32,000 nt of DNA from the NCBI RefSeq assembly GCF_009928525.1, contig NZ_JAABOK010000011.1:228400-260399 (forward strand). The letters are read 5' to 3'. Made by a program: the position numbers and the translations under genes. Below are positions 1,133-32,000 of this stretch, piece after piece. This DNA comes from Chitinophaga solisilvae (GTDB lineage Bacteria; Bacteroidota; Bacteroidia; Chitinophagales; Chitinophagaceae). The notes under the pieces are model-generated. The model did no database searches. It saw only the letters and a list, made by a program, of their open reading frames with translations, and was not told where the DNA came from. Each line of letters starts with the position of its first letter. Position 1 is the stretch's first letter.

Positions 1133-1152
1133 GGTTTTCGTTAAAGTTGCTG

Positions 1153-2445: not shown

Positions 2446-2480
2446 ATTCTGCTTTTTTAATTGAAATACAATTTGATTAA

Positions 2481-4880: not shown

Positions 4881-4893
4881 ACCTTAAAAAAAC

Positions 4894-5748
4894 TTAGAAG
4901 TTTACTCTCGACACAACAACAATCAGCAGTGATAATACTGAGGCCATGATAGAAATCCGTTTTACCTGTGCCATATCAGTTGAAGCAGCTTTTGATTTAT
5001 TCGGTTCCACGTAAACCACATCTCCCTGACGGAGGTAGAAATACGGAGAAGTAAACAGGTTGCTGTTATTGAGATTGAACCGCGCAAATTCTTTCCTGCC
5101 GTTATTTTCACGGATGAGGAGTACGTTTTCCCTTTTCCCGTAGATGGTAAGATCTCCGGCAACACCCAATGCATCGAGCAGGGTGACTTTTTCATTGGGC
5201 ATCACGTAGGTGGAGGGGCGGTTTACTTCTCCCAGCACAGTAATTTTAAAGTTGGCATAACGTACGTTTACCACCGGGTCTTTGTAGTACTCAGCCGCCT
5301 TTGCCCGGATGGTATCACGTACCTGGTCAGTGGATAATCCTTTTACCAGCACCTTGCCTACCAGCGGCAGTACGATGTTTCCTTCCTTGTCAACAAGGTA
5401 ACCCGCAACGCCGTTGTTGGCTGCAGCTGGCTGCAGGCTGGAATTTCCTGTTACCGGCCAGCTGGCGGTGTTCTGCTGGTTCAGTAAGGTGGTAGCTGCG
5501 GGGTCCAGTGTCTGGATGCTCACCTGCAGAATATCATCAGATTGTATTACCGGTGTTTTAAAGGCAGCCTGTGTTACCTCCCGGTTGTTCAATGTATCAG
5601 GCAGATCTTTGAAATAAGTAATATTCTTAGGCGCAGCACAGGAAAACAGGCATATGCTCAACACAGCCATCATGCTCCAGTCAGACCAGCTATTACCACC
5701 TAAACACTTAAAAAACAGGGAGCGATTTTCCCGCTTGAATAACTTCAT
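4894..5748 (-). CDS. Polysaccharide export outer-membrane lipoprotein (Wza-like; Poly_export + SLBB)
   Basis: 284-aa ORF with lipobox-like LSICLFSC and a Poly_export-like IQSDDILQVSIQ region. SLBB-like GEVNRPSTYVMPNEKVTLLDALGVAGDLT. The true start may be the internal MM near 5673 (MMAVLSICLFSC...). The gap to Wzc is 13 nt. Confidence 0.85.
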   Translation of the reverse strand: MKLFKRENRSLFFKCLGGNSWSDWSMMAVLSICLFSCAAPKNITYFKDLPDTLNNREVTQAAFKTPVIQSDDILQVSIQTLDPAATTLLNQQNTASWPVTGNSSLQPAAANNGVAGYLVDKEGNIVLPLVGKVLVKGLSTDQVRDTIRAKAAEYYKDPVVNVRYANFKITVLGEVNRPSTYVMPNEKVTLLDALGVAGDLTIYGKRENVLLIRENNGRKEFARFNLNNSNLFTSPYFYLRQGDVVYVEPNKSKAASTDMAQVKRISIMASVLSLLIVVVSRVNF

Positions 5749-5754
5749 CTTTTA

Positions 5755-8371: not shown

Positions 8372-8941
8372 TTACAATGCGAATACAACCAGACTCTTTG
8401 CGCCATGTGCGCCTAATACGAGGGATTGCTCTATGTCAGCGGTTTTGGAAGGGCCCGCAATGAATACGCCAAAGCCGGTGAGGGGTAAACCAATTTTTTC
8501 ATATGCATCATGCATGGTTGCGAGGATGCGTTCCCGTGAGATAACGATTGCCAGATGCTGACAGATGAAAGGCAGTACGCGCACCGGCGCTTCTTCCTCT
8601 GTGACCCATACAGCGCCATTTTCCGCCACGGCCCACTGTCCGCGGATAACAGCCATATCCACATCCTCCAGCATATGCGGATCTTCGTGTATCCATGACC
8701 GTTCTCCTGATGTGGCTGCTATCACCCGCTTCATTTCTGGATAATGTTGCGCGAGCAAAGCAGGGATCTCCTTCTCATCGCTGATCTCAAACAAGCTGCC
8801 ACCAAGGCTTTCCAGCACCTTACGGTAGGCGTCCAAAGTAGCTGGCATAGCGCCGCGCAGACCATCCAGCGAAGGCAATGCTACCTGCTCAGGCTGATTC
8901 ATTTTTACGGCGCTTAATATTTTATCTCTGCTGCTCATCAT
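8372..8941 (-). CDS. lutC: Lactate utilisation protein C (LUD-domain protein)
   Basis: 189-aa ORF of LutC/YkgG size and composition. It is the last gene of a lutA-lutB-lutC order on the minus strand, 53 nt after lutB. Confidence 0.8.
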   Translation of the reverse strand: MMSSRDKILSAVKMNQPEQVALPSLDGLRGAMPATLDAYRKVLESLGGSLFEISDEKEIPALLAQHYPEMKRVIAATSGERSWIHEDPHMLEDVDMAVIRGQWAVAENGAVWVTEEEAPVRVLPFICQHLAIVISRERILATMHDAYEKIGLPLTGFGVFIAGPSKTADIEQSLVLGAHGAKSLVVFAL

Positions 8942-8994
8942 TATTTTTTTTGTGACACTACGATACTTATCTGATTACTACGATAAATATCCGG

Positions 8995-10401
8995 TTACTT
9001 TTTTTCTTCATTCGCTGCATACCATTCTGCAAAAGATTGTTTCGGCGGTGCAGGCATATCACGTTGTTTGTACCAGGGGTTCAGGCGGTTGTTCACCATG
9101 CCCGGAAAGGCGCGCATCACCCAGCGTCCCATCTTCCCCGCTCTTTTAAAGGTACCGGGCTTTGATAACACAGCGCTCATCATCTTCATCCCTGCAGTTT
9201 TCCCCGCAGTGGTATGCCCTTCCTTCACCAATACCTGCCGCCATTTATACAACTGCTGATGTATATCTATTTTCACCGGACAAACATTAGAGCAGGAGCC
9301 ACACAGGGTAGAAGCAAAAGGCAGGTCTGCATAATCCTTCATATCCAGGTTGGGCGCCAGGATAGCGCCTATTGGTCCTGCTACCGCAGTATGGTAGCTA
9401 TGCCCGCCGCTGCGGCGGTATACCGGGCAGGTGTTCATACATGCCCCGCAACGGATACACTTCAGCGAGTTACGGAAATCTTCCCTGCCCAGCTGCCTGG
9501 AGCGGCCGTTATCTACCAGCACAATATGCAGTTCCTTACCGGGAACGGGCGTACGGAAATGACTGGAATAGGTGGTGATGGGCTGGCCGGTGGCGCTGCG
9601 CGCCAGCAGCCGCAAAAACACCCCGAGGTGTTTACGCTGCGGAATAATTTTTTCAATGCCCATACAGGCTATATGCACATCTGCCAGGTGCGCCCCCATA
9701 TCGGCATTGCCTTCATTGGTGCAAACCACCATCTCTCCCGTTTCCGCTACTGCGAAGTTCACACCGGTGATCGCAGCCCTGGATGCCAGGAATTCCTTAC
9801 GCAGGTGTGCACGTGCCGCCGCAGTCAGCAACTGCGGATCAGCATTGCCGGCGGGTGTTCCCAGGTGTTCATGAAACAGCTCCCCTATCTCTTCCTTCTT
9901 CTTATGTATACAGGGCAGCACAATATGGCTGGGCGGCTCATCTGCCAGCTGTACAATGCGTTCTCCCAGGTCGGTATCTATTACTTCAATGCCGTTGGCC
10001 TGCAGATGCGGGTTCAGGTGGCATTCTTCCGTGAGCATGGACTTACTCTTCACCATCCGTTTCACGCCATGCTGCTTCAGTATAGCGGTCACTATTTCAT
10101 TATGCTCGGCAGCATCCGCGGCCCAATGTATTATTGCGCCGTTCTGCCGTGCCTGTTGCTCGAACTGCAGCAGGTAGCCGTGCAGGTTACCCAGCACATT
10201 CAACTTGATCTGCGAGGCAGCTTCGCGTAACTGTTCCCATTCAGGAATGCTCCATGCCTGTTTGTCGCGCTTGGCTCTCACCCACCACAACGTTTCATCG
10301 TGCCAGTTGACACGTGGTTCATTTTCATTGAATTTATCCGCCAGCGTGGCGTGGTCAGCTGTTTGCCTGTTCATCTGTTGTCTGGTTGAGGATTTCTGCA
10401 A
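8995..10401 (-). CDS. lutB: Lactate utilisation iron-sulfur protein B (LutB/YkgF-like)
   Basis: 468-aa ORF with two ferredoxin-type clusters, CIRCGACMNTCPVY and CGSCSNVCPVKI, plus an N-terminal LUD-like region. The first ATG (10401) overlaps lutA by 47 nt. An alternative ATG at 10374 overlaps it by 20 nt. Confidence 0.88.
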   Translation of the reverse strand: MQKSSTRQQMNRQTADHATLADKFNENEPRVNWHDETLWWVRAKRDKQAWSIPEWEQLREAASQIKLNVLGNLHGYLLQFEQQARQNGAIIHWAADAAEHNEIVTAILKQHGVKRMVKSKSMLTEECHLNPHLQANGIEVIDTDLGERIVQLADEPPSHIVLPCIHKKKEEIGELFHEHLGTPAGNADPQLLTAAARAHLRKEFLASRAAITGVNFAVAETGEMVVCTNEGNADMGAHLADVHIACMGIEKIIPQRKHLGVFLRLLARSATGQPITTYSSHFRTPVPGKELHIVLVDNGRSRQLGREDFRNSLKCIRCGACMNTCPVYRRSGGHSYHTAVAGPIGAILAPNLDMKDYADLPFASTLCGSCSNVCPVKIDIHQQLYKWRQVLVKEGHTTAGKTAGMKMMSAVLSKPGTFKRAGKMGRWVMRAFPGMVNNRLNPWYKQRDMPAPPKQSFAEWYAANEEKK

Positions 10402-11110
10402 TATGCATCACTTTCACCGGCTGATGCCCGCGGCGTAAGATACCTTCCAGGTGCATCAGGCAGCTCACATCCGTACCGGTAATCACGGTAGCGCCATGTT
10501 TAACGTGATCGGCTACACGGTCTTTTCCCATCTTGACAGACACGGCCTCTTCTGTTACACAGAAAGTACCTCCGAATCCGCAGCACTCATCTTTGCGGTC
10601 CAGCTCTACCAGCTCTACTCCATCCACCATCTGCAGCAGCTGTAAAGGTTTGGAGAAAGGCGCTGCCACCAGCTCGCTCATCTGCGCCAGCCCGAGGCCG
10701 CGCTGCCCGTGGCAGCTCTGATGCAGGCCTACCTTACAGGGAAACCGTGCAGGCAACGACGTTACCTTCAGCACATCCGTTAAGAATTCCGTCAGTTCGT
10801 ATATCCGTGATCGTATGCCGGCCGCTGCCGGCTCCTGCTCCGCATCATGCAGGTGCTCCCTGATATGCAGCACGCAGCTGCCCGAAGGCCCCACTATATA
10901 ATCATATCCGGCAAAATGCTCAATAAACAGGCTGTTGCACTGATGCGTCAGATGCTCATAACCGCTGTTCGCCATCGGCTGTCCGCAACAGGTCTGTCCC
11001 TGCGGATACTCCACTTCACATCCCAGCTTCCGTAAAAGCTGCAACGTGGCAATACCCACCTGCGGATAAAACTGGTCTATGTAACACGGTATAAATAATC
11101 CTACTTTCAC
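10355..11110 (-). CDS. lutA: Lactate utilisation protein A ((Fe-S)-binding CCG-domain oxidoreductase, LutA/YkgE-like)
   Basis: 251-aa ORF with two cysteine-rich CCG motifs (QTCCGQPMANSG and DECCGFGGTF). It is the first gene of the lutABC order. Confidence 0.88.
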   Translation of the reverse strand: MKVGLFIPCYIDQFYPQVGIATLQLLRKLGCEVEYPQGQTCCGQPMANSGYEHLTHQCNSLFIEHFAGYDYIVGPSGSCVLHIREHLHDAEQEPAAAGIRSRIYELTEFLTDVLKVTSLPARFPCKVGLHQSCHGQRGLGLAQMSELVAAPFSKPLQLLQMVDGVELVELDRKDECCGFGGTFCVTEEAVSVKMGKDRVADHVKHGATVITGTDVSCLMHLEGILRRGHQPVKVMHIAEILNQTTDEQANS

Positions 11111-16215: not shown

Positions 16216-17511
16216 ATGAAAAACACTGATACGTGGCGGATAAAAGCCATATTAACCGGGTCGGCGGGCAATCTGGTAGAATGGTATGACTGGTATGTCT
16301 ACTCTACTTTTGCTTTATATTTTGCGCCTGTCTTTTTTCCATCAGATAATTATACAGCACAGCTGCTCAATACGGCGGCTATCTTTGCGGTAGGCTTCCT
16401 CATGCGCCCTGTGGGCGGGTGGCTGTTTGGCGCCATTGCTGACAAGAAAGGGCGCAAAACAGCCATGACACTGTCTGTATTGCTGATGTCCCTCGGTTCC
16501 ATGCTGATTGCTTTTACCCCTTCGCATGCAAGCATTGGGGTGATGGCGCCTGTATTGCTGCTCCTGGCGCGGTTATTACAGGGCCTCAGCGTAGGCGGCG
16601 AATACGGCACTTCCGCGACATACCTCAGCGAAGTGGCAACCGCCAACCGCCGCGGGTTCTACTCCAGCTTCCAGTATGTAACACTCATAGGCGGCCAACT
16701 CACCGCACTCGGTGTTCAGATGATCCTGCAATCCCTGCTTACACGGGAGCAGCTCTACAGCTGGGGCTGGCGTATTCCTTTTGTAATAGGCGCCTTGCTG
16801 GCCCTGTTCACCCTCTACCTGCGCTCCCATATGCAGGAATCTACCTCGTTTGACAAATCCAAAGCGACAGATAAAAAAGGTTCCGTAAAAGAGCTGTTCA
16901 AAAAATATCCGCGGGCGGTGCTTACCGTCGTAGGACTCACCATGGGCGGCACGCTGGCCTTCTATACCTATACTACCTACATGCAGAAATTTCTGGTGAA
17001 TACAGTGAAACTAAGCATTGAACGGACAACCACACTCGTTTTCTTCCTGATGCTGATATACGCCTGCATGCAACCTCTGTTCGGGCTGCTGTCAGATAAA
17101 TATGGCCGAAAGCCTTTACTCATAGGCTTCGGCGTGCTCGGCACCCTCTTTACGGTGCCTATCTTAACCGGCATCAGTCAGACTACCTCAGAAAGCACGG
17201 CCTTCCTGCTGATACTGGTGGCGCTCATCATCGTAAGCGGGTATACCTCCATCAATGCGGTCGTAAAAGCTGAAATGTTCCCCGCTGAAGTGCGGGCGCT
17301 GGGCGTAGGCTTCCCGTATGCGCTCACGGTAGCGCTGTTTGGCGGTACCGCGGAATCCATCGCATTATATTTTAAGAAAACAGGACATGAATCCTGGTAC
17401 TACTGGTATGTGACAGTTTGTATTTTCATATCGCTGCTGGTATATATTACCTCCAAAGATACCAGGCGGAACTCCTATCTGGACAAGGATCTAACAGAAC
17501 CGTCCGCATAA
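16216..17511 (+). CDS. MFS metabolite:H+ symporter (KgtP/ProP/ShiA-like)
   Basis: 431-aa ORF with ~12 predicted TM segments. It carries the MHS-family N-terminus GNLVEWYDWYVYSTFALYFAPVFF and the MFS loop motif GAIADKKGRK. Substrate cannot be assigned from sequence. Confidence 0.88.
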   Translation: MKNTDTWRIKAILTGSAGNLVEWYDWYVYSTFALYFAPVFFPSDNYTAQLLNTAAIFAVGFLMRPVGGWLFGAIADKKGRKTAMTLSVLLMSLGSMLIAFTPSHASIGVMAPVLLLLARLLQGLSVGGEYGTSATYLSEVATANRRGFYSSFQYVTLIGGQLTALGVQMILQSLLTREQLYSWGWRIPFVIGALLALFTLYLRSHMQESTSFDKSKATDKKGSVKELFKKYPRAVLTVVGLTMGGTLAFYTYTTYMQKFLVNTVKLSIERTTTLVFFLMLIYACMQPLFGLLSDKYGRKPLLIGFGVLGTLFTVPILTGISQTTSESTAFLLILVALIIVSGYTSINAVVKAEMFPAEVRALGVGFPYALTVALFGGTAESIALYFKKTGHESWYYWYVTVCIFISLLVYITSKDTRRNSYLDKDLTEPSA

Positions 17512-18152
17512 CCGATGAGCAGACGGCTGGCGTAGCGGAGAAACAAGCCGTTCTCCACTACGCCGGGGATGTCATTGAGCTGCCGGTGCAGCTCAGGGGC
17601 GGCTGTAATCCGGCCGTAATGACAATCCAGGATATAATTACCGTTATCTGTAATAAATATTTTACCTTCTTTTCTACGGAGCACCGGTGATGCGCCTGAC
17701 TGCTCCAGGTGCCGGAAGGTGAACTCCCAGGCGAATGGAATGATTTCCACCGGCAGGGGAAAATTTCCCAGCTGTTTCACCAGTTTGGAAGCATCCATAA
17801 TCACCAGCATTTCCTTCGCGGCAGCGGCCACAATCTTCTCGCGCAACAAAGCGCCTCCGCCGCCTTTAATCAGTTGCAGCGATTCGTCTGCCTCATCAGC
17901 TCCGTCAATATCCAGGTCTATGCTGTCTACCTGTTCAAAAGGGATGATGGGGATCTGCTGCGCGCGTGCCAGTTCCTCAGAAGCGGCCGAAGTAGCGACA
18001 GCCTGCAGCTGCATCCCGTTCCTAACGAGCTCGCCTATACGCATAATCGCGTAATAGGCGGTACTGCCTGTTCCCAGCCCGATGGTCATACCGGGCTGAA
18101 TATATGCTGCCGCGGCTTCTCCTGCGGCTTTCTTTGCCAGATCCTGTTGCAT
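17475..18152 (-). CDS. rpiA: Ribose-5-phosphate isomerase A
   Basis: 225-aa ORF with GLGTGSTAYYAI, IDGADEAD and KGGGGALLREK motifs matching RpiA. Its 3' end overlaps the convergent MFS gene by 37 nt. Confidence 0.9.
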   Translation of the reverse strand: MQQDLAKKAAGEAAAAYIQPGMTIGLGTGSTAYYAIMRIGELVRNGMQLQAVATSAASEELARAQQIPIIPFEQVDSIDLDIDGADEADESLQLIKGGGGALLREKIVAAAAKEMLVIMDASKLVKQLGNFPLPVEIIPFAWEFTFRHLEQSGASPVLRRKEGKIFITDNGNYILDCHYGRITAAPELHRQLNDIPGVVENGLFLRYASRLLIGYADGSVRSLSR

Positions 18153-18169
18153 GCAACAAATATAAGGAA

Positions 18170-20473
18170 TCAGAATGAGGCAAGTACTTCGTCGAGATGC
18201 GCGAGCAATGCGTCTGTATTCGCCTTGTTAAACACCATGGGCGGTTTTATTTTCAGCACGTTATGCAGCGGTCCGTCGGTACTCAGCAGGAAACCTCTTT
18301 CCTTCATTGCCTCTACAATCTGGTCTATTTCCGGAACAGCCGGCTCCAGCGTTTCGCGGCTGCGCACCAGCTCTGCGCCGATGAAGAAACCGTGTCCGCG
18401 CACATCGCCGATGATGGCATGCCGTGCCTTTAGTTTTTCCAGGCCTTCCATGAAATAATTACCGGTAACGCGGGCGTGTTCCTGTAAGCCTTCTTCTTTG
18501 ATGACCTGCAGCACTGCCAGCCCGGTAGCCATAGATACGGGGTTACCGCCGAAGGTGTTGAAATATTCCATCCCGTTATTAAATGCGTCTGCAATGGCTT
18601 TGGTGGTTACTACGGCGGCCAGCGGGTGACCGTTGCCGATCGGTTTTCCCAGCACCACGATGTCCGGAGTTACCTCCTGTAATTCAAAGCCCCAGAAAGC
18701 GTCTCCTACCCTGCCGAAGCCAACCTGCACCTCGTCTGCGATACAAACGCCGCCGGCGGCGCGCACAGCGGCATACACGCTTTTCAGGTAACCGGGTGGT
18801 AATGGAATCTGGCCGCCTACGCCCAGCAACGTTTCACAGATATATGCCGCCACGCCTTTACCGTCCTGCTGCAGGCCGGTGATGATGCGTTGCACATCTT
18901 CCGCATATTTTTCTCCTGCCTGCGGATCATCACTACGGTATGGTCCGCGGAACATATCAGGATTCAGGGCTTTATGGGTATGCTCCGGTTTGCCGAATCC
19001 GCCTTTACCATCGAACTTATACGGACTCAGCTCCATCGCCACCGTAGAAGTGCCGTGGTAAGCATGATCCAGTACAACAACATCTTTCTGTTTCGTGAAA
19101 TGGCGGCTCATACGGATAGCCAGGTCATTGGCCTCGCTGCCGGAATTGGTAAAATAGCAGACTTCCAGACTGGAAGGCAACGTAGATAACAGGAGCTCCG
19201 CATAATCCACCAGGTTATCGTGCAGATAGCGGGTATTGGTATTCAGCTTCGCAATCTGGCGCTGCATCGCTTTTACCACGGTAGGATGGCAATGCCCTAC
19301 GTGACTGGGGTTATTCACACAATCAATATAGGTGCGGCCCTTATCATCATAGAGGTACTGCAGTGCGCCGCGTACTATTTTCAACGGCTTTTTATAGCTG
19401 ATACTGAGATTGCGGCCGATATGTGCCCGGCGGTTGTCTAACAGCGGTGCATAGGCGTCATCTTCCTGAATAACAGACGGAAACCCGCAAGCCAGGCGGA
19501 ATGCCTGTTGCGCAGCCACCGGGTTGATGGTAATCAGTTTGAACAGCAGCTGCCAGGCGCCGTTTTCTGTGATAAAGTGGAATTCATTATCACTGCCTTC
19601 CGCAGCTTTACCGGCAGAAGTAGTAACGCTGATGCATAAACGTGCAGCGATGAGGTAATAGAGCAGATCTGTTTCCTCCGGCGTGAGCGCATATGCCTGG
19701 TGGTAACCGCCCACCACTTCTACGGCGGCCTGCAACGGATCGGCTGCCTGCAGCATAACATAGGTACAGGCAATAGCCAGGTTATTCACCAGTGTGGTAT
19801 GTACCATATCGCCGAAATCAATCAGCCCGCTGATGGCATTATTTTCTACAAGAACATTATAATCGTTTGCATCATTGTGGATATATGCCTTACGCAGGGA
19901 AGAGAGCTGCGGTAAAACCTCCATTTCAAACTGCAACAGGAAATAGGCTGCCAGTCTGCGTTTCTCATGGTCTTTAATGCAGGGCAGCTGTGCACGTGCA
20001 TCCAGCGCCTGCGCAATATCCCACTTGATGTAACGGTGCATGGCCGGATGAGAAAACATTTCCAGGGCCTGATCCATTTTACCGAGGAAATTACCCAGGG
20101 AGACATTCAGTTCCCGTGTACCCTTTACCGTTACCATGGGCTTTCCTTCCAGCCAGGTATACAGGCGCATGTAATGTATTTCTTCGGGGAATATCAGCGG
20201 TGTAACTGCTTCCCCCTTCTTATTCTTCAGCACCTGCTGGAAATGCCCGGCGATATTGCTGCGGGACAGCTTATCCAGTATTTTTGCCTGCGCATCAAGG
20301 AAAGACGGGCTATGTGTATCATCTGCTACCTTACAGATATATTTCTTTCCGTTTTCATCTTCCAGGAAGAAGTTCGCCTCCTCATACCCTTCGAGTTCCT
20401 TGCCTGTCACATTGAGTCCGTAATATTCCTGCACCAGTTTAATGATGCCTGTTGTAGAAAAAGTATAGTACAT
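18170..20473 (-). CDS. Bifunctional fusion: N-terminal APH-fold kinase (hydroxylysine-kinase/HYKK-like) + C-terminal class-III PLP enzyme of the AGXT2L phospho-lyase type
   Basis: 767-aa ORF. Residues ~1-330 carry the APH-type catalytic loop [13 protein letters not shown] and GLIDFGD. Residues ~340-767 carry [83 protein letters not shown] (PLP Lys), [13 protein letters not shown] and NVLKIKPPM. From memory these closely parallel animal ETNPPL/PHYKPL. No signal peptide. Confidence 0.85.
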
Positions 20474-20483
20474 AATCCCGTTA

Positions 20484-25536
<5,053 letters not shown>

Positions 25537-25540
25537 TTAA

Positions 25541-25797
25541 GAATTGCGAATTACGAATTACGAATTGCGAATGATAGCGAAGATGGAAATCTGATAATTA
25601 AGAATTATGAATGATGAGTTAACGGGAAAATAGCAGCGAAGCTAAAAGCTGGCATAGGCATAAAGAACAAGTGTTAATAATGCTTCCATCTCCGCTCTTA
25701 TCTTCCCGTTAACTCATCATTCATAATTCATAATTCTTAATTATCAAATTCCCATCTTCGCTATCATTCGCAATTCGTAATTCGCAATTCGTAATTA
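25541..25797. repeat. Long nested hairpin repeat element 3 (~90-nt arms, imperfect centre)
   Basis: 25541-25628 pairs with 25703-25797, with a few mismatches and one 7-nt unit indel. The outer module is GAATTGC/GAATTAC heptamers + GAATGATAGCGAAGATGG. The inner module is AATTAAGAATTATGAATGATGAGTTAACGGGAA, homologous to element 1. The element fills the susD-GH2 spacer, including the susD stop codon, and ends 8-13 nt from the GH2 ATG. Confidence 0.88.
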
Positions 25798-27324
25798 TTT
25801 AGCAAGCGGGTTGTTTAATGTTTCTTTCAGCGGCAGCGGGAAATAGTTATTCGCTGTTGTCCAGGTACGGCCTGCAGCCTGCATGTTTGTTGCCAAAAGG
25901 CCCCAGCGGCGAAGGTCGTAGAAACGGCTGCTTTCCAGCGTGAACTCCATGACACGTTCGTGCACGATCTGGTTAAATACGTCTGCGGAGGCAGTCAGGT
26001 TCAGTGCAGGCATTGCGGAGCGTGCGCGCACATCGTTGACCTGTTCCATGGCTTTATCCTGGGCGCCGAGGTGGTTCTGTGTTTCCGCATACAACAGCTT
26101 CACGTCCGCAAAGCGGATGATAGGCATATTGATGGCGGTTGCGTTGCCCAGCAGGGCGCTGCTGGCAGGAATCCATTTGCGGAAGGCAATGGCGCCGTCG
26201 TTGTTTTTGAACACGTCGTCGTAGATCTCATCATATACGCGCGGGTTTGCGGGATCGTTGAAGTAGGCATCCTTGAAGAAAACAGTACTGTAGATACGGT
26301 GATCGTACAGGCCATCGGAGGCTGTTTTGCCTTCTTTCTTCATTTCTGCCAGCAGGCGTGGCGTACCATAGATTTCGCCGTAGCCGCCCAGTTCAAAGGC
26401 TGCGATCCAGTCGCTCAGCTGTGATTTGAAGTAGTTCCCATTGGATTCATCCATGGTCATCTGCAGTTCGAAAACAGATTCTTTGGAATTCTTCAGTGTA
26501 CCGTTGAACATGCCCATGAAATTGGATTCGAGGGAGTATTCATTGGAGTCCATCACTTTCTTCAGCCAGGTAGCAGCTTCTGTGTAGTATTTGGTTTTGT
26601 TGGCGGCATCTTCACCACCGCGGTAGATCAGCGCCTTGCCCAGGTAAGCCTGTGCAGCGCCTTTGGTGGCCCTTCCCAATTCCTTGTTAGGTCTGCCACT
26701 GCGGAGTGGCAGGTCAGCTTCCGCCAGCTTCAGGTCATTGATAATCAGATCCCATACTTCACTGCGGGAGGCAGGAGCTTTAGGCATATCAGATTCGCCT
26801 TCAGGCACTTTGTCACGGATGATTACCTTTTCGAAGTTGGTCAGCAGTTTAAAGTAGTAATAGGCTTCCAGGAAGCGGGCTTCCGCCAGGATAGCCTTGC
26901 GGCTGGCCTCGTCGATCTGGTTGTCGGTCATCGCCGCTACGTTGGCCAGCACCTGGTTGGTGAAGTTGATACCGCGGTAATTATCTTTCCAGAAATAATC
27001 GATGGCCACATTGTCTGACTGATAGGTGAAGTTGTATATCTCCATCCACCAGCTGTAGTTGTAGGCGTCTGTACCTGGTTCCACGAAATCTTCGCGGAAG
27101 TACTCGCGGCAGGAACGGCCTTCGATGAAGTTTTCCCAGCCTACGAAGCTCTCGACCTGTGAATAGGCGGCAGCCAGGCCGCTGAGTGCGCGCTCCCGGC
27201 TGTTCCAGAAGTTATCGGTAGTCAGCTTATCAGGAGAGTTCTGGTTCAGCAACTCCTTTTTGCAGCCGGTGCTGCAAAAAAGTCCTGCTGATACCAGCAT
27301 TGTATATAACAAAGATTTTTTCAT
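25795..27324 (-). CDS. SusD/RagB-family nutrient-binding outer-membrane lipoprotein
   Basis: 509-aa ORF with lipoprotein signal MKKSLLYTMLVSAGLFCSTGC and TPR-like SusD composition (LAEARFLEAYYYFKL; C-terminal RFYDLRRWG). It lies 11 nt downstream of a SusC-like gene. Confidence 0.92.
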   Translation of the reverse strand: MKKSLLYTMLVSAGLFCSTGCKKELLNQNSPDKLTTDNFWNSRERALSGLAAAYSQVESFVGWENFIEGRSCREYFREDFVEPGTDAYNYSWWMEIYNFTYQSDNVAIDYFWKDNYRGINFTNQVLANVAAMTDNQIDEASRKAILAEARFLEAYYYFKLLTNFEKVIIRDKVPEGESDMPKAPASRSEVWDLIINDLKLAEADLPLRSGRPNKELGRATKGAAQAYLGKALIYRGGEDAANKTKYYTEAATWLKKVMDSNEYSLESNFMGMFNGTLKNSKESVFELQMTMDESNGNYFKSQLSDWIAAFELGGYGEIYGTPRLLAEMKKEGKTASDGLYDHRIYSTVFFKDAYFNDPANPRVYDEIYDDVFKNNDGAIAFRKWIPASSALLGNATAINMPIIRFADVKLLYAETQNHLGAQDKAMEQVNDVRARSAMPALNLTASADVFNQIVHERVMEFTLESSRFYDLRRWGLLATNMQAAGRTWTTANNYFPLPLKETLNNPLAK

Positions 27325-27335
27325 AACGAATAATT

Positions 27336-30300
27336 TTAGAATTCCAGTTGCATACCAACCATAAACACTTTGTTCTGCGGATATTTCCAGCGATCGATAC
27401 CATTGCTCAGGCTACCGTATTTCCGGGTAGTGGGGTCGCTGTTCAGTGCGTCCGCATTACCGATTTCAGGATCCAGCCCTGAATATTTGGTGAAGGTGAG
27501 CAGGTTCTGTCCACTTACGTAGAGGCGTAACCGTGATATTTTAGCCATTTCCAGCAGTTTCGGAGAGAAGGCATAACCCAGCTGCAGCATCTTCAGGCGC
27601 AGGTAGCTGCCATTTTCCAGGAAGCGGGTAGATTCGCGGTTGTTTCTGTTCGGATCACCTAACACAGCACGTGGTATGCTGGTATTGGTATTCTGTGGCG
27701 TCCAGGCATTCAGGGTGCTCACGTCGAAGTTACGGCCGGCATCCATACCCTGGAGTTCATACATATTACCATTATAGATTTTGTTACCGGTAACACCCTG
27801 CCAGAACATCTGCAGGTCGAAGCCCTTGTACGCCAGGTTGATGTTCAGGCCGTATTCCAGTTTAGGGAAATAGCTGCCTTTATAGGTTTTGTCGTTATCA
27901 TCGATCACACCGTCGCCGTTGGTATCTTCAAAGCGGATATCACCGGCTTTTGCGGCAGGCTGTAATCTTTCGCCTTTGGCATTTTTATAGTTGGCCGCTT
28001 CTTCGTCAGACTGGAAAAGGCCCTGTGTCTGATACAGGTAGAAAGCGCCCATTTCCGTGCCTTCGCGGCTGCTGGTAGGGAATACGGAAGTACCGTATTT
28101 CAGACCAAGGCCATTCAGGTACTGTCCCTTGTTGGCCAGTTCCAGCACTTTGTTTTTCACCTGGCTAACGGTACCGGTTACACTATAGGAGAAGTCAGAT
28201 TTTTTATCAGCCCAGGTCAGGTCCAGTTCCCATCCGCGGTTGCCGATGCGGCCGGCGTTCAGGGTAGGCTCTACCAGACCGGCGCTTGGAGCCAGCTCCT
28301 TGGTGATCAGCAGGTCAACCGTCACGTTGTTGAAATAGTTGAAGGAACCCGTCAGTTTATTCAGCACACCAAAATCAAAACCAATGTTGCGGGATACGTT
28401 TGTTTCCCAGCGCAGATCTTTGTTTTTCAGATCCCAGGCGATACCGCCGGGCCATGCCGTGCTGCCATCACCCTGCACATATCCGCCGCCCATGTAGTTC
28501 AGTACGGAGATCAGCTGCTGGTGATCGTAATATCCGAGTACATCTTCATTACCCAGGCGGCCATAGCTGGCGCGTAATTTCAGCTGATTGAGCCAGGTCA
28601 GGGACTGCATGAAGTTTTCACTCTGCATGTTCCAGCCCACCGACACAGACGGGAATACTCCATAGCGGCGGTTTTCACCGAATTTGGAAGAACCGTCGCG
28701 GCGAACGGACAGCTGCAGGAGGTATTTACCATCGTATGCATAGTTAATACGACCCAGTGTAGACAGGCGGTAGTACTGCGGACGGGAGCCGGTTGCCTTG
28801 AAGGAACCGCCGGCAGCGCCATCCATAGTATTGAAGGAAGGATCCAGGAAACCGCCGGGAATCACATTGCTTTCAATAGCGCCATCGCCGTTTACGGTGT
28901 ATACGGTTGTTTTACCATCCGCCACGGTGGTAATGCTGTTTGTCTGATATTGCTGTGCAGTGTAACCCGCCAGCAGGTTCAGGCTGTGCTTACCGAAGGT
29001 GCGGTCATAGTATAACAGGTTTTCCATCAGGCGTTCGCGGTAGTTGGAACGGCCGTCTTCCAGCCGTGCAAAAGGCGTTTCCGGATCGTTTGCATTGGCG
29101 CGGTACGGCGGATGGAAAGCGTAGTTGATATAGTTGGTGTTCACCAGGTTGAGGTTCGTCACGAACTTCATACCCTGGATCAGCTGTAATGACAGGCGGG
29201 CGTTACCATTAAAATACTGGCTCTTGCTGTAGTTGTCGTTATAGAAGTTAACGCCTACAGGATTTTCAAACTTCGGCAGTTCGTTGATCTGCATCCCGTA
29301 GCCATATTTGGATTTTGCATCGTAAACAGACAGCAGCGGGGACTGGAAGTAGGCATCCTTGATGCTGTAAGCTACATCCTTGCGTTCAGTTTCGGCATAT
29401 ACCAGGTTAGCCTCAATGGTGAGGCGGCCTTTCTTATACTCGTTACGGGAACGGAGTGCTTTCTTCTTGAAGTCGCTGCCGATGAAAGTACCTTTATCAT
29501 TGGCGATGCTACCACTCAGGCCATAGTTGAAATAATCGCCGCCGCCGGTAACATTGAGACTGTAGTTTTCAGAACTACCGGAACGGGTGATTTCGTCCTG
29601 CCAGTTGGTGTTGGCAGTAACGCCTGTTTTCAGGTAAGCCGGACGTTTGGCCCTGGGTGCATTATCATACATCATGGTGTGTACTTTCAGGTAGCCTTCC
29701 GCATCCAGCAGTTTCATTTTACCGGTAGGGTTTACCATGCTGTACCAGGCGTTGAATTCCATTTTAGGCGCGCCTTTTTTACCTTTCTTGGTAGTTACGA
29801 GGATAACGCCGTTGGCACTCTTAGAACCGTAAATAGACGCCGCGGCGCCGTCTTTCAGTACTTCAATGGAAGCAATGTCATTATTATTCAGGTAATAGGG
29901 ATCTCCGGGGCTACCATCTATGATAAACAGCGGAGCGTGGGAACCATAGGTGCTTACGCCACGGAGCCTGATATCAGGCATGGCGCCGGGGGTACCACCG
30001 GTATTGTTGACGGTTAAACCCGCCACGCGGCCCTGTAATGCGCCTACAGGGTTGTTGCTGGCTACATTGGCGATCTCGCTGCCTTTAACAGAGGAGATAG
30101 CGCTGGACACCGTTCTTTTGCTCTGGGTGCCGTAGCCTACTACCACCACCTGGTCCAGTACCTTGGTGGAGGTATTGAGGGTAATATCCAGCACCTGCTG
30201 GCCGGTATATGCCACTTCCTGTTTATCGTAGCCGATAAAAGATACTTCCAGCACTGCGCCTGCGGGCAGGTCAGTGAAGCGGAAAGCACCCTTTACGTCA

Positions 30301-30758
30301 GTGAGCATGCCGCGTGAAGTTCCTTTCACGCGCACGCTTACACCAGGCAAAGCCTCTCCTGAAGCAGATTTCACCGTACCTGCCACCGGCTTTTCCTGTG
30401 CCGGTGCAGCTGTGGTTACCATTGCCACATTTCTGGCAGCAGGCACTTTCACCAGGATGATGTCTTCTGTCATCCTGAATTCAAGTGAAGTAACATGACT
30501 GATTTCCTGTAATAAATTCTCTACTGTTCTCTCTTTTTTATCGATCGTAACAGGTTTTAATTTTTCCAGATCGTCAAGATTGTACGAGAATTTCAGACGG
30601 GTATTTTTTTCGAGGTACTGCAGCACACCGAGTACTTTCGTTTGTCTGAAACCAACGTCGATCTTATCTTTCAGACCTTCTGCTATCTGTACCCAGCTTA
30701 GCAAAAGGAAGGACATGAGCATGCCAAAGCATGCCCTCAAAAGGGATGTTTTCGTCAT
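27336..30758 (-). CDS. SusC/RagA-family TonB-dependent transporter with N-terminal STN signalling extension (transducer type)
   Basis: 1140-aa ORF. An STN-like segment (VLGVLQYLEKNTRLKFSY...ENLLQEI) is followed by a carboxypeptidase-regulatory-like domain (VAGTVKSASGEALPGVSVRVKGT) and a SusC plug signature (VVVVGYGTQSKRTVSSAISSV). The barrel ends in F. Confidence 0.92.
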   Translation of the reverse strand: MTKTSLLRACFGMLMSFLLLSWVQIAEGLKDKIDVGFRQTKVLGVLQYLEKNTRLKFSYNLDDLEKLKPVTIDKKERTVENLLQEISHVTSLEFRMTEDIILVKVPAARNVAMVTTAAPAQEKPVAGTVKSASGEALPGVSVRVKGTSRGMLTDVKGAFRFTDLPAGAVLEVSFIGYDKQEVAYTGQQVLDITLNTSTKVLDQVVVVGYGTQSKRTVSSAISSVKGSEIANVASNNPVGALQGRVAGLTVNNTGGTPGAMPDIRLRGVSTYGSHAPLFIIDGSPGDPYYLNNNDIASIEVLKDGAAASIYGSKSANGVILVTTKKGKKGAPKMEFNAWYSMVNPTGKMKLLDAEGYLKVHTMMYDNAPRAKRPAYLKTGVTANTNWQDEITRSGSSENYSLNVTGGGDYFNYGLSGSIANDKGTFIGSDFKKKALRSRNEYKKGRLTIEANLVYAETERKDVAYSIKDAYFQSPLLSVYDAKSKYGYGMQINELPKFENPVGVNFYNDNYSKSQYFNGNARLSLQLIQGMKFVTNLNLVNTNYINYAFHPPYRANANDPETPFARLEDGRSNYRERLMENLLYYDRTFGKHSLNLLAGYTAQQYQTNSITTVADGKTTVYTVNGDGAIESNVIPGGFLDPSFNTMDGAAGGSFKATGSRPQYYRLSTLGRINYAYDGKYLLQLSVRRDGSSKFGENRRYGVFPSVSVGWNMQSENFMQSLTWLNQLKLRASYGRLGNEDVLGYYDHQQLISVLNYMGGGYVQGDGSTAWPGGIAWDLKNKDLRWETNVSRNIGFDFGVLNKLTGSFNYFNNVTVDLLITKELAPSAGLVEPTLNAGRIGNRGWELDLTWADKKSDFSYSVTGTVSQVKNKVLELANKGQYLNGLGLKYGTSVFPTSSREGTEMGAFYLYQTQGLFQSDEEAANYKNAKGERLQPAAKAGDIRFEDTNGDGVIDDNDKTYKGSYFPKLEYGLNINLAYKGFDLQMFWQGVTGNKIYNGNMYELQGMDAGRNFDVSTLNAWTPQNTNTSIPRAVLGDPNRNNRESTRFLENGSYLRLKMLQLGYAFSPKLLEMAKISRLRLYVSGQNLLTFTKYSGLDPEIGNADALNSDPTTRKYGSLSNGIDRWKYPQNKVFMVGMQLEF

Positions 30759-30792: not shown

Positions 30793-31803
30793 TTATTTAG
30801 TTACTGCCTGTATGTATAAAATGTTGTTTTTTGTTGATGATGATAATCCGTTCACGAAGCACACTGCTGCCAGTACATCCTGCAGCGGCTTGTTGCTGAA
30901 TACGCCGTTGAAGCGGATAGGCTTGTATTTGCCTGGTTGTACCACTACTTTTATGCCGTACCAGTATTCGAGCGAAGCGGCAATATCTGCCAGGGACGCG
31001 TTGCTGAATATCAGCTGGCCTTTTCTCCAGGCCATTTCCCGGCTGGTGTCAAAGGTACTTTTGCGGAATGCCGGCTGTTCTTTACCGGTTGTCAGCTGTT
31101 CTCCGGGCTGCAGGTCTGCAGTAGCTGCCGCCTGCGCCACGCGTACCTTTCCGTTTACCAGCAGCACGGCGGCGGCGGTATCAAAGGGATAGGCGCGTAA
31201 TTTAAATGCAGTGCCCAATGCCTGTACATGCAGACTGCCACTGTTAACAATAAATGGTTTGTTTTCTACGCCTGCTACCTCGAACAACGCTTCGCCCTGC
31301 AGCTCCAGCCGGCGGTCCTGTTGGTTGTAACTGTGCGGTACTTTCAGCGTGCTGCTGGCATTCAGGATCACATGACTTCCGTCTGCCAGCATGATCTCGC
31401 GGCGTATGCTGCCGGCAGCGGTATATATCGTATATGTATCAGACTGTTGTGGTGTATGGCCCTGTCTTTTGCTCAGCAGCCAGCTACCCGCCAGTATCAG
31501 TGGCAGCATGACAGCAGCGGCTATACGTATTATTCTTTTCCGGGGAAAGGCCGACGGCGGCGTTGCTGCTCCGGCTACCGCCAGTTTCAGCTTGCCGAAC
31601 TCCGCTTCCTTTTCTTCCGGGGTAATGCGAAGCCCCAACCGGAACAACCATTCCCGCGCGATAGCCGCTTCTTCCTGCTTATGCGGATACCTTTCCAGCC
31701 AGTTCTCCCAGAACTGAATGTCTGATTCGTTACTGCGCAGGCAATAACGAACAAAGGAATCGTTGAGGATGAAGTCTTCCGCCTTGTATTGCTGTAAATC
31801 CAT
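30793..31803 (-). CDS. FecR-family anti-sigma factor / transmembrane sensor
   Basis: 336-aa ORF with an N-terminal cytoplasmic anti-sigma region, a single TM (IIRIAAAVMLPLILAGSWLL) and a periplasmic FecR-like domain. It sits between an ECF sigma and an STN-SusC. Confidence 0.88.
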   Translation of the reverse strand: MDLQQYKAEDFILNDSFVRYCLRSNESDIQFWENWLERYPHKQEEAAIAREWLFRLGLRITPEEKEAEFGKLKLAVAGAATPPSAFPRKRIIRIAAAVMLPLILAGSWLLSKRQGHTPQQSDTYTIYTAAGSIRREIMLADGSHVILNASSTLKVPHSYNQQDRRLELQGEALFEVAGVENKPFIVNSGSLHVQALGTAFKLRAYPFDTAAAVLLVNGKVRVAQAAATADLQPGEQLTTGKEQPAFRKSTFDTSREMAWRKGQLIFSNASLADIAASLEYWYGIKVVVQPGKYKPIRFNGVFSNKPLQDVLAAVCFVNGLSSSTKNNILYIQAVTK

Positions 31804-31856: not shown

Positions 31857-32000
31857 TCAGGAATTTTTTTCTATGTCTATCAAAAGCAGCAGCAGCGCTA
31901 TAAATGTGGCATCTGTATATACTTCCCGGATACGTACCAGGGCGTTGTGAATGGTATTATAAATAGTACGGGGCGTAGCCGCCGTTTTCATGGCTATTTC
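31857..32000 (-). CDS. 3' end (last 47 codons) of an ECF-type sigma-70 family factor
   Basis: My own translation of the minus strand from the window edge gives EIAMKTAATPRTIYNTIHNALVRIREVYTDATFIALLLLLIDIEKNS*, with the stop at 31857-31859. The EIA...TIYNTIHNALVRIRE pattern fits a region-4 HTH. It lies 53 nt upstream of fecR. This ORF is not in the supplied track (<60 aa). Confidence 0.7.
   Translation of the reverse strand, partial: EIAMKTAATPRTIYNTIHNALVRIREVYTDATFIALLLLLIDIEKNS

What the first reader, a model, noticed from the sequence alone, without database searches (positions are those of the whole stretch)
18170..20473. Single-polypeptide fusion of a hydroxylysine-kinase-like domain and an AGXT2L-type phospho-lyase domain
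Seen: an APH-fold kinase (HNDANDYN catalytic loop, IDFGD) is fused in frame to a class-III PLP domain. By my recollection, its motif set ([52 protein letters not shown]) is that of animal ethanolamine-phosphate/5-phosphohydroxylysine phospho-lyases rather than ordinary transaminases.

Established: in animals HYKK (AGPHD1) phosphorylates 5-hydroxy-L-lysine. PHYKPL (AGXT2L2) then converts the phosphoester to 2-aminoadipate semialdehyde + NH3 + Pi (Veiga-da-Cunha et al., J Biol Chem 2012). As I recall, bacterial kinase/AGXT2L-homologue associations were noted there.

Inference: this fusion performs kinase-then-lyase removal of an amino-alcohol. Its physiological substrate in bacteria is, to my knowledge, not established.
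Basis: partly seen in the sequence, partly recalled or inferred. Interest (0 to 1): 0.6.

Follow-up and report, generated by a model that had tools for sequence, protein, structure and literature searches.

The report
Fused hydroxylysine kinase and phospho-lyase
A soil Chitinophaga joins in one protein the two enzymes animals use to break down hydroxylysine; the fusion type has been known since 2012, but its gene neighbours suggest that it ends a bacterial route for eating the sugar-tagged hydroxylysine of collagen.

Summary
Window 18170-20473 (minus strand) is one 767-aa ORF. An APH-fold kinase (residues 1-335) is fused to a class-III PLP domain (residues ~340-767). The PLP domain aligns end to end with human ethanolamine-phosphate phospho-lyase (E 4e-146). 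The best hit that is not a phospho-lyase scores only 3e-51. The catalytic residues of both halves are invariant in 41 homologues.

This kind of fusion is not new. By my recollection, bacterial bi- and tri-functional kinase/AGXT2L proteins were the clue used by Veiga-da-Cunha et al. (2012), and NCBIfam holds models for them.

What the tools add is a substrate. The gene is the cytoplasmic last enzyme of an ECF-sigma/SusCD locus. That locus also holds a secreted GH2 beta-galactosidase and the genome's only GH63 alpha-glucosidase.

In 30 of 79 related loci a beta-galactosidase (GH2 or GH42) and/or an alpha-glucosidase (GH63 or GH31) lies next to the fusion. Other neighbours are HglS, piperideine-6-carboxylate dehydrogenase, Xaa-Pro aminopeptidase and galactokinase.

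The most likely role is catabolism of 5-hydroxylysine freed from collagen-type Glc-Gal-Hyl. No biochemical test was possible. The scan has already reached the same reading on many other genomes (232 notes).

The parts
18170..20473 (-). Fusion gene, 767 aa, with no signal peptide (cytoplasmic). Proposed function: 5-hydroxylysine kinase / 5-phosphohydroxylysine phospho-lyase.
   Evidence: ORF and translation. Pfam APH + Aminotran_3. Single copy in the genome. N-terminus has no signal peptide. AF2 model has pLDDT 90 and pTM 0.90.
19469..20473 (-). Kinase domain (residues 1-335), APH / eukaryotic-like-kinase fold. Invariant residues: K48, D201, N206 (HNDANDYN loop), D219 and D222 (IDFGD).
   Evidence: Pfam. 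Invariant columns in alignments of 41 and 40 sequences. Domain model has pLDDT 96. Nearest solved folds are amicoumacin kinase, type II homoserine kinase and aminopropanol kinase, all at 16% identity or less. No PDB sequence hit at E<0.01.
18173..19456 (-). PLP-dependent phospho-lyase domain (residues ~340-767). Schiff-base Lys K610 lies in [10 protein letters not shown]580 lies in [11 protein letters not shown].
   Evidence: End-to-end alignment with human ETNPPL 6tor (E 4e-146) and Arthrobacter phospholyase 5g4i (E 2.5e-101). Foldseek: 6tor at 52% identity, rmsd 1.6 A, TM 0.95. K610 and D580 are invariant.
20484..22457 (-). GH63 / MGH1-like (YgjK-type) alpha-glucosidase with a signal peptide. 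It ends 10 nt upstream of the fusion. It is the only gene of this family in the 8-Mb genome.
   Evidence: Pfam PF22422, YgjK_N and GH63. NCBIfam PRK10137 alpha-glucosidase, 385 bits, below cut-off. Signal peptide. Single copy.
22423..25527 (-). GH2 LacZ-type beta-galactosidase with a signal peptide. Its end overlaps the start of the GH63 gene.
   Evidence: Pfam GH2 domains. NCBIfam beta_gal_Bga2A, 974 bits against a cut-off of 999. Signal peptide.
25795..27324 (-). SusD-family outer-membrane binding protein.
   Evidence: Pfam SusD_RagB and SusD-like_3.
27336..30758 (-). SusC-type TonB-dependent transporter.
   Evidence: Pfam CarboxypepD_reg and Plug.
30793..31803 (-). FecR-type anti-sigma factor.
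   Evidence: Pfam FecR and FecR_C.
31857..32000 (-). 3' part of the ECF sigma factor gene that heads the locus. It runs off the window.
   Evidence: L082:457-1098(-) carries Sigma70_r4 domains.
17475..18152 (-). rpiA (ribose-5-phosphate isomerase A), 17 nt downstream of the fusion. It is a neighbour only in the closest Chitinophaga species and is probably not part of the pathway.
   Evidence: Pfam Rib_5-P_isom_A. Cluster c10 is present only in L001-L006.

Best explanation
The gene encodes a cytoplasmic bifunctional enzyme. Its N-terminal APH-fold kinase phosphorylates the 5-hydroxyl of free 5-hydroxy-L-lysine with a nucleoside triphosphate. Its C-terminal PLP domain binds the neighbouring epsilon-amino group as an aldimine on K610. 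It then eliminates phosphate and releases ammonia, giving 2-aminoadipate semialdehyde, which is in equilibrium with piperideine-6-carboxylate. The genome's own piperideine-6-carboxylate dehydrogenase and HglS carry the carbon on towards 2-oxoglutarate.

The hydroxylysine comes from collagen-type Glc-alpha1,2-Gal-beta-O-Hyl glycopeptides. SusC/SusD import these under ECF-sigma/anti-sigma control. The secreted GH63 alpha-glucosidase and GH2 beta-galactosidase encoded just upstream remove the two sugars in the periplasm.

Shown here: domain identities, conserved catalytic residues, operon layout and conserved neighbourhoods. Inferred: substrate identity, phosphate donor, order of steps, and any channelling between the two domains.
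For: 1. Both catalytic sets are intact and invariant across homologues.
2. The PLP domain groups with the two characterised phospho-lyases, separated by a gap of about 50 orders of magnitude in E-value from the next class-III enzymes. The fold match to 6tor has TM 0.95 at 52% identity.
3. The operon is tight. GH2 and GH63 overlap, 10 nt separate GH63 from the fusion, both glycosidases carry signal peptides, and the fusion has none.
4. The fusion and the GH63 gene are each single copy in an 8-Mb genome, yet they are adjacent.
5. In 30 of 79 related loci a beta-galactosidase and/or an alpha-glucosidase lies next to the fusion. This is seen in Chitinophaga, Pedobacter, Flavitalea, Flavobacterium and several MAG lineages. 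Family swaps occur: GH42 replaces GH2 in L041, L047 and L067, and GH31 replaces GH63 in L013. That argues for selection on the two activities rather than on particular families.
6. Lysine-catabolism genes are fused into the same gene runs. HglS (2-oxoadipate dioxygenase/decarboxylase) starts 5-72 nt downstream in L010, L015, L032, L048 and L059. An ornithine-cyclodeaminase/ketimine-reductase family gene lies in L016.
7. An evenly drawn phylum sample gave L086, with HglS, P6C dehydrogenase, GH63, GH42 and the fusion on one strand. It also gave tri-functional relatives flanked by GH63 and GH2 (L093, L105) and relatives with galactokinase, a DHDPS-family gene and Xaa-Pro aminopeptidase.
8. The window's own genome has a saccharopine dehydrogenase, HglS and P6C dehydrogenase operon that can take the product. 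The dehydrogenase scores 839 bits against a cut-off of 730.
9. Collagen-peptide peptidases recur: M24 in L016, L023, L026 and L067, and M28 plus M90 divergent from this locus's sigma factor.
10. E. coli YgjK, the closest named GH63, was crystallised with galactose in subsite +1 (PMC7263609). Animals cleave Glc-alpha1,2-Gal-Hyl with a dedicated alpha-glucosidase (PMC8626586).
Against: The PLP domain's best solved relative is the phosphoethanolamine enzyme, not the phosphohydroxylysine enzyme. No PHYKPL structure showed up in the PDB search, so this comparison is one-sided.

Orthology of the kinase half to animal HYKK could not be tested. No named HYKK could be retrieved, and the nearest solved kinases share 16% identity or less.

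More than half of the related loci show no glycosidase next to the fusion. Two of five such genomes checked have no GH63 homologue at all. The enzyme therefore also works outside this locus type.

No inner-membrane hydroxylysine transporter is identified. The convergent MFS gene is a generic metabolite/H+ symporter.

A source of collagen glycopeptide for a soil Chitinophaga is plausible but not shown.
Confidence: 0.65

Rival explanations
1. The fusion is an ethanolamine (or phosphoethanolamine-salvage) kinase / phosphoethanolamine phospho-lyase that yields acetaldehyde, ammonia and phosphate. On this reading, its place next to the glycosidases is unrelated to its substrate.
For: The closest solved homologue is human ethanolamine-phosphate phospho-lyase (E 4e-146, 52% identity over the structure). 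The bacterial phospholyase 5g4i is the second-best hit. By my recollection it was characterised on O-phosphoethanolamine.
Against: No acetaldehyde-handling or eut-type gene appears among the recurrent neighbours. The recurrent neighbours are instead HglS, P6C dehydrogenase, beta-galactosidases, alpha-glucosidases and Xaa-Pro aminopeptidase. By established knowledge, known ethanolamine kinases belong to the choline-kinase family, not to this APH branch. By my recollection the vertebrate ETNPPL and PHYKPL are close paralogues, so similarity to ETNPPL does not discriminate between them.
Confidence: 0.1
2. The fusion acts on a different vicinal amino alcohol. Candidates are 1-amino-2-propanol (as in the mycobacterial microcompartment pathway), 4-amino-3-hydroxybutyrate, isoserine, or an as yet unknown glycosylated amino alcohol released by the same two glycosidases.
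For: The kinase fold resembles the microcompartment aminopropanol kinase 6ef6 (E 4.7e-12). The kinase family is large and diverse, with 929 representatives at E<=1e-30, and many relatives sit in unrelated contexts. Substrate range may therefore vary across the family.
Against: Identity to 6ef6 is only 15%. None of the window genes scanned is a microcompartment shell gene. The links to HglS, P6C dehydrogenase and the OCD-family gene fit a six-carbon amino-acid product. By established knowledge, Glc-Gal-Hyl is the known natural glycoside that combines an alpha-glucose, a beta-galactose and an amino alcohol.
Confidence: 0.15
3. The C-terminal half is a conventional class-III aminotransferase, and the N-terminal half is a homoserine, antibiotic or protein kinase. 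The fusion would then be a transaminase with a regulatory or resistance domain.
For: Pfam names only the broad families APH and Aminotran_3. Some sources name relatives of the kinase 'Ser/Thr protein kinase RdoA' or '4-aminobutyrate aminotransferase-like'.
Against: No NCBIfam transaminase model comes near its cut-off; the best is 266 bits against 574. The homoserine kinase models score 55 bits against cut-offs of 256-271. There is a wide E-value gap between the phospho-lyases and all transaminases. The source names are automatic labels.
Confidence: 0.05

Closest known systems
Vertebrate hydroxylysine kinase HYKK (AGPHD1) plus 5-phosphohydroxy-L-lysine phospho-lyase PHYKPL (AGXT2L2) (Veiga-da-Cunha et al., J Biol Chem 2012; cited from memory and through the reference lists seen)
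   Same: The same two chemistries occur in the same order: an APH-family kinase, then a class-III PLP ammonia/phosphate-eliminating lyase. The proposed substrate and product (2-aminoadipate semialdehyde) are also the same.
   Different: Here both activities sit on one 767-aa polypeptide, and the gene is embedded in a glycan-uptake locus. Animals have two separate proteins. Orthology to HYKK and PHYKPL could not be tested because neither sequence was available to the tools.
Human ethanolamine-phosphate phospho-lyase ETNPPL (PDB 6tor) and Arthrobacter aurescens phospholyase A1RDF1 (PDB 5g4i)
   Same: The PLP domain aligns over its whole length (E 4e-146 and 2.5e-101; 52% and 42% identity in the structural alignment). 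Motifs around the PLP lysine and the phosphate-binding loop are shared.
   Different: Those enzymes are stand-alone. ETNPPL acts on phosphoethanolamine, as its PDB name says, and by my recollection so does A1RDF1. This one carries its own kinase, and its neighbours point to a C6 amino-acid substrate.
Bacterial bi- and tri-functional kinase(-M23 peptidase)-aminotransferase proteins, NCBIfam PRK06148 / PRK06149
   Same: The kinase and PLP halves are the same. The protein matches both ends of the 1015-position PRK06148 profile (979 bits). Tri-functional relatives of about 1010-1050 aa occur in Bacteroidota. The Peptidase_M23 domain was seen only as a precomputed annotation on partial relatives from other phyla.
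   Different: The window protein lacks the middle segment of about 250 residues and falls below both curated cut-offs (1128 and 973 bits). NCBIfam names these families only 'hypothetical protein' and 'aminotransferase'.
Aminopropanol kinase plus amino-alcohol-phosphate phospho-lyase of the Mycobacterium/Rhodococcus microcompartment (kinase structure 6ef6)
   Same: The logic is the same: an APH-fold kinase feeds a class-III PLP phospho-lyase. That pairing is from my own knowledge. The kinase fold is related.
   Different: Identity is only 15%. The proteins there are separate and act in a protein-shell context on a different substrate (1-amino-2-propanol).
Animal protein-glucosylgalactosylhydroxylysine glucosidase PGGHG (GH65) (PMC8626586)
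   Same: It performs the step proposed here for the upstream GH63 enzyme: removal of the alpha-1,2-glucose from Glc-Gal-Hyl.
   Different: It belongs to a different glycoside hydrolase family (GH65, not GH63). The bacterial enzyme's specificity is untested.

Membership tests
AGXT2L-type ammonio-phospho-lyases (ETNPPL / PHYKPL / A1RDF1), class-III PLP fold type I | Class-III aminotransferase fold with the PLP Schiff-base lysine and the pyridine-nitrogen aspartate. | tested here: met
   PF00202 at E 5e-77. K610 and D580 are invariant in 41 homologues. Foldseek TM 0.95 to 6tor.
AGXT2L-type ammonio-phospho-lyases (ETNPPL / PHYKPL / A1RDF1), class-III PLP fold type I | Closer to characterised phospho-lyases than to any transaminase, decarboxylase or racemase. 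| tested here: met
   6tor scores 4e-146 and 5g4i scores 2.5e-101, against 3e-51 for the next chain, a dialkylglycine decarboxylase. No NCBIfam transaminase cut-off is reached.
AGXT2L-type ammonio-phospho-lyases (ETNPPL / PHYKPL / A1RDF1), class-III PLP fold type I | Catalyses 1,2-elimination of phosphate and ammonia without an amino acceptor. | not testable with these tools
   This needs an enzyme assay.
HYKK/AGPHD1-type hydroxylysine kinase | APH-fold small-molecule kinase with the catalytic loop (D..N) and the metal-binding DFG-like aspartate. | tested here: met
   PF01636 at E 3e-21. K48, D201, N206, D219 and D222 are invariant. Fold matches to small-molecule APH-type kinases.
HYKK/AGPHD1-type hydroxylysine kinase | Orthology to animal HYKK (reciprocal best match or a shared clade). 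| not testable with these tools
   No HYKK sequence or structure was reachable. There was no PDB hit, the top 120 and top 150 homologues are unnamed or bacterial, and name look-ups returned only metagenomic entries. The homology claim rests on my recollection of the 2012 paper.
HYKK/AGPHD1-type hydroxylysine kinase | Phosphorylates 5-hydroxy-L-lysine. | not testable with these tools
   Only indirect support from gene neighbourhoods.
NCBIfam PRK06148 / PRK06149 (kinase-M23-aminotransferase proteins) | Whole-protein score above the curated cut-off. | tested here: not met
   979 bits against 1128, and 643 bits against 973. Two separate stretches match the two ends of the profile, and the middle segment is absent.
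Type II homoserine kinase (thrB_alt, TIGR00938 / PRK05231) | Score above the equivalog cut-off. | tested here: not met
   55 bits against cut-offs of 255.9 and 271.
Bacteroidota polysaccharide-utilisation locus (PUL) with trans-envelope signalling | An adjacent SusC/SusD pair with glycoside hydrolases, headed by an ECF sigma and a FecR anti-sigma. | tested here: met
   Pfam assignments for all genes on one strand. The same order is found in Chitinophaga, Pedobacter and Flavitalea.

The most novel reading that the evidence does not exclude
The fusion is the committing cytoplasmic step of a bacterial pathway, not described in any paper I could search, for using collagen's glucosyl-galactosyl-hydroxylysine. 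The steps would be SusCD import, GH63 (or GH31) de-glucosylation, GH2 (or GH42) de-galactosylation, and then kinase/phospho-lyase conversion of hydroxylysine to 2-aminoadipate semialdehyde, which feeds P6C dehydrogenase and HglS. If true, this would give the first physiological substrate for the bacterial bi- and tri-functional kinase/AGXT2L family. It would also identify YgjK-type GH63 enzymes as bacterial counterparts of animal PGGHG.
Probability: 0.55. Interest if true: 0.7.

Novelty: new member of a known kind. Interest (0 to 1): 0.5.

Why it matters
As far as I know and could find in the searchable literature, the bacterial kinase/phospho-lyase fusions served in 2012 as a clue to the animal enzymes, while their own substrate has never been established.

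The conserved neighbours found here turn that gap into a concrete hypothesis that can be tested at the bench: bacteria harvest the glycosylated hydroxylysine of collagen. Animals themselves largely excrete this compound.

If confirmed, three things would follow:
- A new nutrient niche would be defined for soil, freshwater and marine Bacteroidota.
- Specific functions would be assigned to a GH63 and a GH2 subgroup.
- Enzymes would become available for analysing or removing collagen glycosylation.

Tried and rejected
- **2012 paper.** I tried to read Veiga-da-Cunha et al. 2012 by PubMed id and by PMC id. It is not held, so what it says about bacterial fusions is cited from memory and from how PMC12138971 cites it.
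- **HYKK comparison.** I tried to retrieve an animal HYKK. A word-indexed search with the kinase domain, an exhaustive search of representatives and two name look-ups returned only bacterial or metagenomic, mostly unnamed proteins. No kinase phylogeny with HYKK could be built.
- **Phospho-lyase phylogeny.** A tree of the PLP domain with PHYKPL and ETNPPL was not attempted. No PHYKPL structure appeared in the PDB search, and I expected the top lists to be filled with bacterial sequences.
- **Solved kinase structures.** A PDB sequence search with the kinase domain found nothing at E<0.01. Only fold comparison gave distant relatives.
- **Homoserine kinase and ordinary transaminase.** Both readings were rejected on NCBIfam scores.
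- **rpiA as a pathway member.** Rejected, because it is a neighbour only in the closest Chitinophaga species.
- **Promoter/terminator scan.** Uninformative. The consensus used is not that of Bacteroidota, and only a weak terminator-like site was found after rpiA.
- **Literature on such a bacterial locus.** Searches found none in the held library.
Full report
**1. Observation**

Window 18170-20473 (minus strand) is a single open frame of 767 codons with an ATG start. Pfam places an APH phosphotransferase domain at residues 28-249 (E 3e-21). It places a class-III aminotransferase domain at residues 363-764 (E 5e-77). The protein has no signal peptide and is single copy in the 8-Mb genome.

**2. 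The two halves**

*PLP half.* It aligns from end to end with human ethanolamine-phosphate phospho-lyase (PDB 6tor, E 4e-146) and with the Arthrobacter phospholyase A1RDF1 (5g4i, E 2.5e-101). The next solved protein, a dialkylglycine decarboxylase, reaches only 3e-51. An AlphaFold model built on 41 homologues has pLDDT 90 and pTM 0.90. Its PLP half superposes on 6tor with rmsd 1.6 A, TM 0.95 and 52% identity. No NCBIfam transaminase model comes near its cut-off.

*Kinase half.* It has no sequence relative in the PDB at E<0.01. A separate model (pLDDT 96) matches small-molecule kinases of the APH fold: amicoumacin kinase, type II homoserine kinase and the microcompartment aminopropanol kinase. 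All share 16% identity or less. The homoserine-kinase models score 55 bits against cut-offs of 256-271.

*Conservation.* Across 41 full-length homologues these residues are invariant: K48, D201, N203, N206, D219 and D222 in the kinase half, and D580 and K610 in the PLP half. Both active sites are therefore under selection.

**3. What is already known**

The fused architecture is catalogued. NCBIfam PRK06148 and PRK06149 describe proteins of about 1000 aa with the same two ends. The window protein matches both ends but lacks the middle segment, and it falls below the cut-offs. Homologue lists show three forms: stand-alone kinases of about 335 aa, bifunctional proteins of about 765 aa, and tri-functional proteins of about 1010-1050 aa. 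A Peptidase_M23 domain next to the kinase domain appears as a precomputed Pfam annotation on partial relatives.

By my recollection, such bacterial bi- and tri-functional proteins were the clue that led Veiga-da-Cunha et al. (2012) to HYKK, PHYKPL and ETNPPL. That paper was not held. PMC12138971 cites it in its passage on gene fusions that reveal enzyme functions. As a fusion, this gene is therefore a new member of a known kind.

**4. Context in the window**

All of these genes lie on the minus strand, in this order:
- an ECF sigma factor, which runs off the window;
- a FecR anti-sigma factor;
- SusC and SusD;
- a GH2 beta-galactosidase;
- a YgjK-type GH63 alpha-glucosidase;
- the fusion;
- rpiA.

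GH2 and GH63 overlap. Ten nucleotides separate GH63 from the fusion. Both glycosidases carry signal peptides. The GH63 gene is the only member of its Pfam family in the genome. Just outside the window, M28 and M90 peptidase genes diverge from the sigma factor gene.

**5. Related loci**

A scan of one genome per species returned 79 related loci. The closest, at 78-81% identity, are Chitinophaga species. I clustered the neighbouring ORFs and annotated representatives with Pfam and NCBIfam.
- **Full locus order.** The order SusC, SusD, GH2, GH63, fusion recurs in Chitinophaga, Pedobacter, Flavitalea and unclassified MAGs.
- **Glycosidase next to the fusion.** In all, 30 of 79 loci carry a beta-galactosidase and/or an alpha-glucosidase beside the fusion.
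- **Family swaps.** GH42 stands in for GH2 in L041, L047 and L067. GH31 stands in for GH63 in L013.
- **Lysine catabolism.** HglS starts 5-72 nt downstream of the fusion in L010, L015, L032, L048 and L059. An ornithine-cyclodeaminase/ketimine-reductase family gene precedes the fusion in L016.
- **Collagen-type peptidase.** An M24 Xaa-Pro aminopeptidase lies upstream in L016, L023, L026 and L067.

On a tree of 66 fusion proteins these contexts are spread over the whole bifunctional clade, including its earliest branch, L077.

**6. A less biased sample**

In 401 Bacteroidota genomes drawn evenly from the phylum (400 plus the window's own), 34 carry a kinase-domain homologue at E<=1e-30. I fetched all 35 loci of the other 33 genomes and compared them.
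- L086 has HglS, P6C dehydrogenase (69% identical to this genome's), GH63, GH42 and the fusion on one strand.
- The tri-functional forms in L093 and L105 are flanked by GH63 and GH2. L102 has GH2 only.
- Four loci of one genus carry galactokinase and a DHDPS-family gene upstream (seen in three of them; the fourth contig begins at the fusion), and an M24 aminopeptidase downstream.
- M20 and M29 peptidases occur beside other copies.

Most remaining loci showed none of these genes. In five genomes where the fusion has no adjacent GH63, three have a GH63 homologue elsewhere and two have none. The link is frequent but not universal.

**7. Fate of the product**

The window's genome has an operon of saccharopine dehydrogenase, HglS and an aldehyde dehydrogenase. 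The dehydrogenase passes the NCBIfam equivalog cut-off for L-piperidine-6-carboxylate dehydrogenase (839 bits against 730). The predicted product, 2-aminoadipate semialdehyde / P6C, therefore has a dedicated route onward.

**8. Interpretation**

The best-supported reading is a cytoplasmic 5-hydroxylysine kinase / 5-phosphohydroxylysine phospho-lyase. It would finish the use of collagen-type Glc-alpha1,2-Gal-beta-O-Hyl after periplasmic removal of the glucose and the galactose.

Two papers give outside support. YgjK, the closest named GH63, was crystallised with galactose in subsite +1 (PMC7263609). Animals use a dedicated alpha-glucosidase on Glc-Gal-Hyl (PMC8626586).

The rivals are less well supported by the neighbours but cannot be excluded without assays. 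They are ethanolamine, another amino alcohol as in the aminopropanol system, or an ordinary transaminase.

I give 0.65 to hydroxylysine as the physiological substrate. I give about 0.9 to the general mechanism of a kinase followed by a phospho-lyase acting on a vicinal amino alcohol.

**9. Limits**

- No comparison with HYKK or PHYKPL sequences was possible.
- No hydroxylysine transporter was identified. The convergent MFS gene is a generic metabolite/H+ symporter.
- The held literature contains no description of such a bacterial locus. Much subscription literature is not held.

**10. Relation to the scan**

The scan holds 232 notes with the same reading in at least 190 genomes. I reached this reading, before consulting those notes. 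They are not independent evidence. Two of their leads were tested here: tri-functional forms inside GH63/GH2 operons, and hydroxyproline- or lysine-catabolism neighbours. The first was confirmed and the second partly confirmed.

Noticed in passing
L082:1285-3699 (+), just beyond the window's right end (G000:C3 about 261.1-263.5 kb): M28 aminopeptidase and M90 metallopeptidase genes are transcribed divergently from the ECF sigma factor that heads the locus. They may trim the imported glycopeptides.
   Followed up: partly
L081:6225-9792 (-) (G000:C1 about 509.2-512.8 kb): The window's own genome has an operon of saccharopine dehydrogenase, HglS and L-piperidine-6-carboxylate dehydrogenase. This is a lysine-catabolism route that can accept the fusion's predicted product.
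   Followed up: yes
L086:1408-10754 (+): In one genome of the evenly drawn phylum sample, HglS, P6C dehydrogenase, GH63, GH42 and the bifunctional fusion lie on one strand. This is the most complete single cluster seen.
   Followed up: partly
L089:4805-13433, with the same layout in L091 and L094: Tri-functional relatives sit with galactokinase and a DHDPS-family gene upstream and an M24 Xaa-Pro aminopeptidase downstream. By my recollection the DHDPS family includes a hydroxyproline-pathway deaminase. The role of the ~250-residue middle segment of the tri-functional form (not scanned here; M23 by analogy with relatives) is unexplained.
   Followed up: partly
window 17475-17511: The 3' ends of rpiA (minus strand) and of the MFS metabolite/H+ symporter gene (plus strand) overlap by 37 nt. 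A weak terminator-like hairpin lies at 17396-17381 on the minus strand.
   Followed up: no
L027:4890-10279; L048:619-2922; L074:5656-7936: In three MAG loci the GH2, GH63 or fusion genes are split into several ORFs. This could be gene decay or assembly frameshifts.
   Followed up: no
window 25528-25794: The 267-nt spacer between susD and the GH2 gene is the only long gap in the locus. Earlier scan notes describe it as a nested hairpin repeat. I did not examine it.
   Followed up: no
window 143-7701 and 8372-11110: The left part of the window holds capsule/exopolysaccharide genes (an NAD-dependent epimerase/dehydratase, UDP-glucose/GDP-mannose dehydrogenase family, Wzz/tyrosine-kinase-like, Wza-like export, Polysacc_synt_2) and a lutABC-type lactate-utilisation cluster. 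Both are unrelated to the finding.
   Followed up: no
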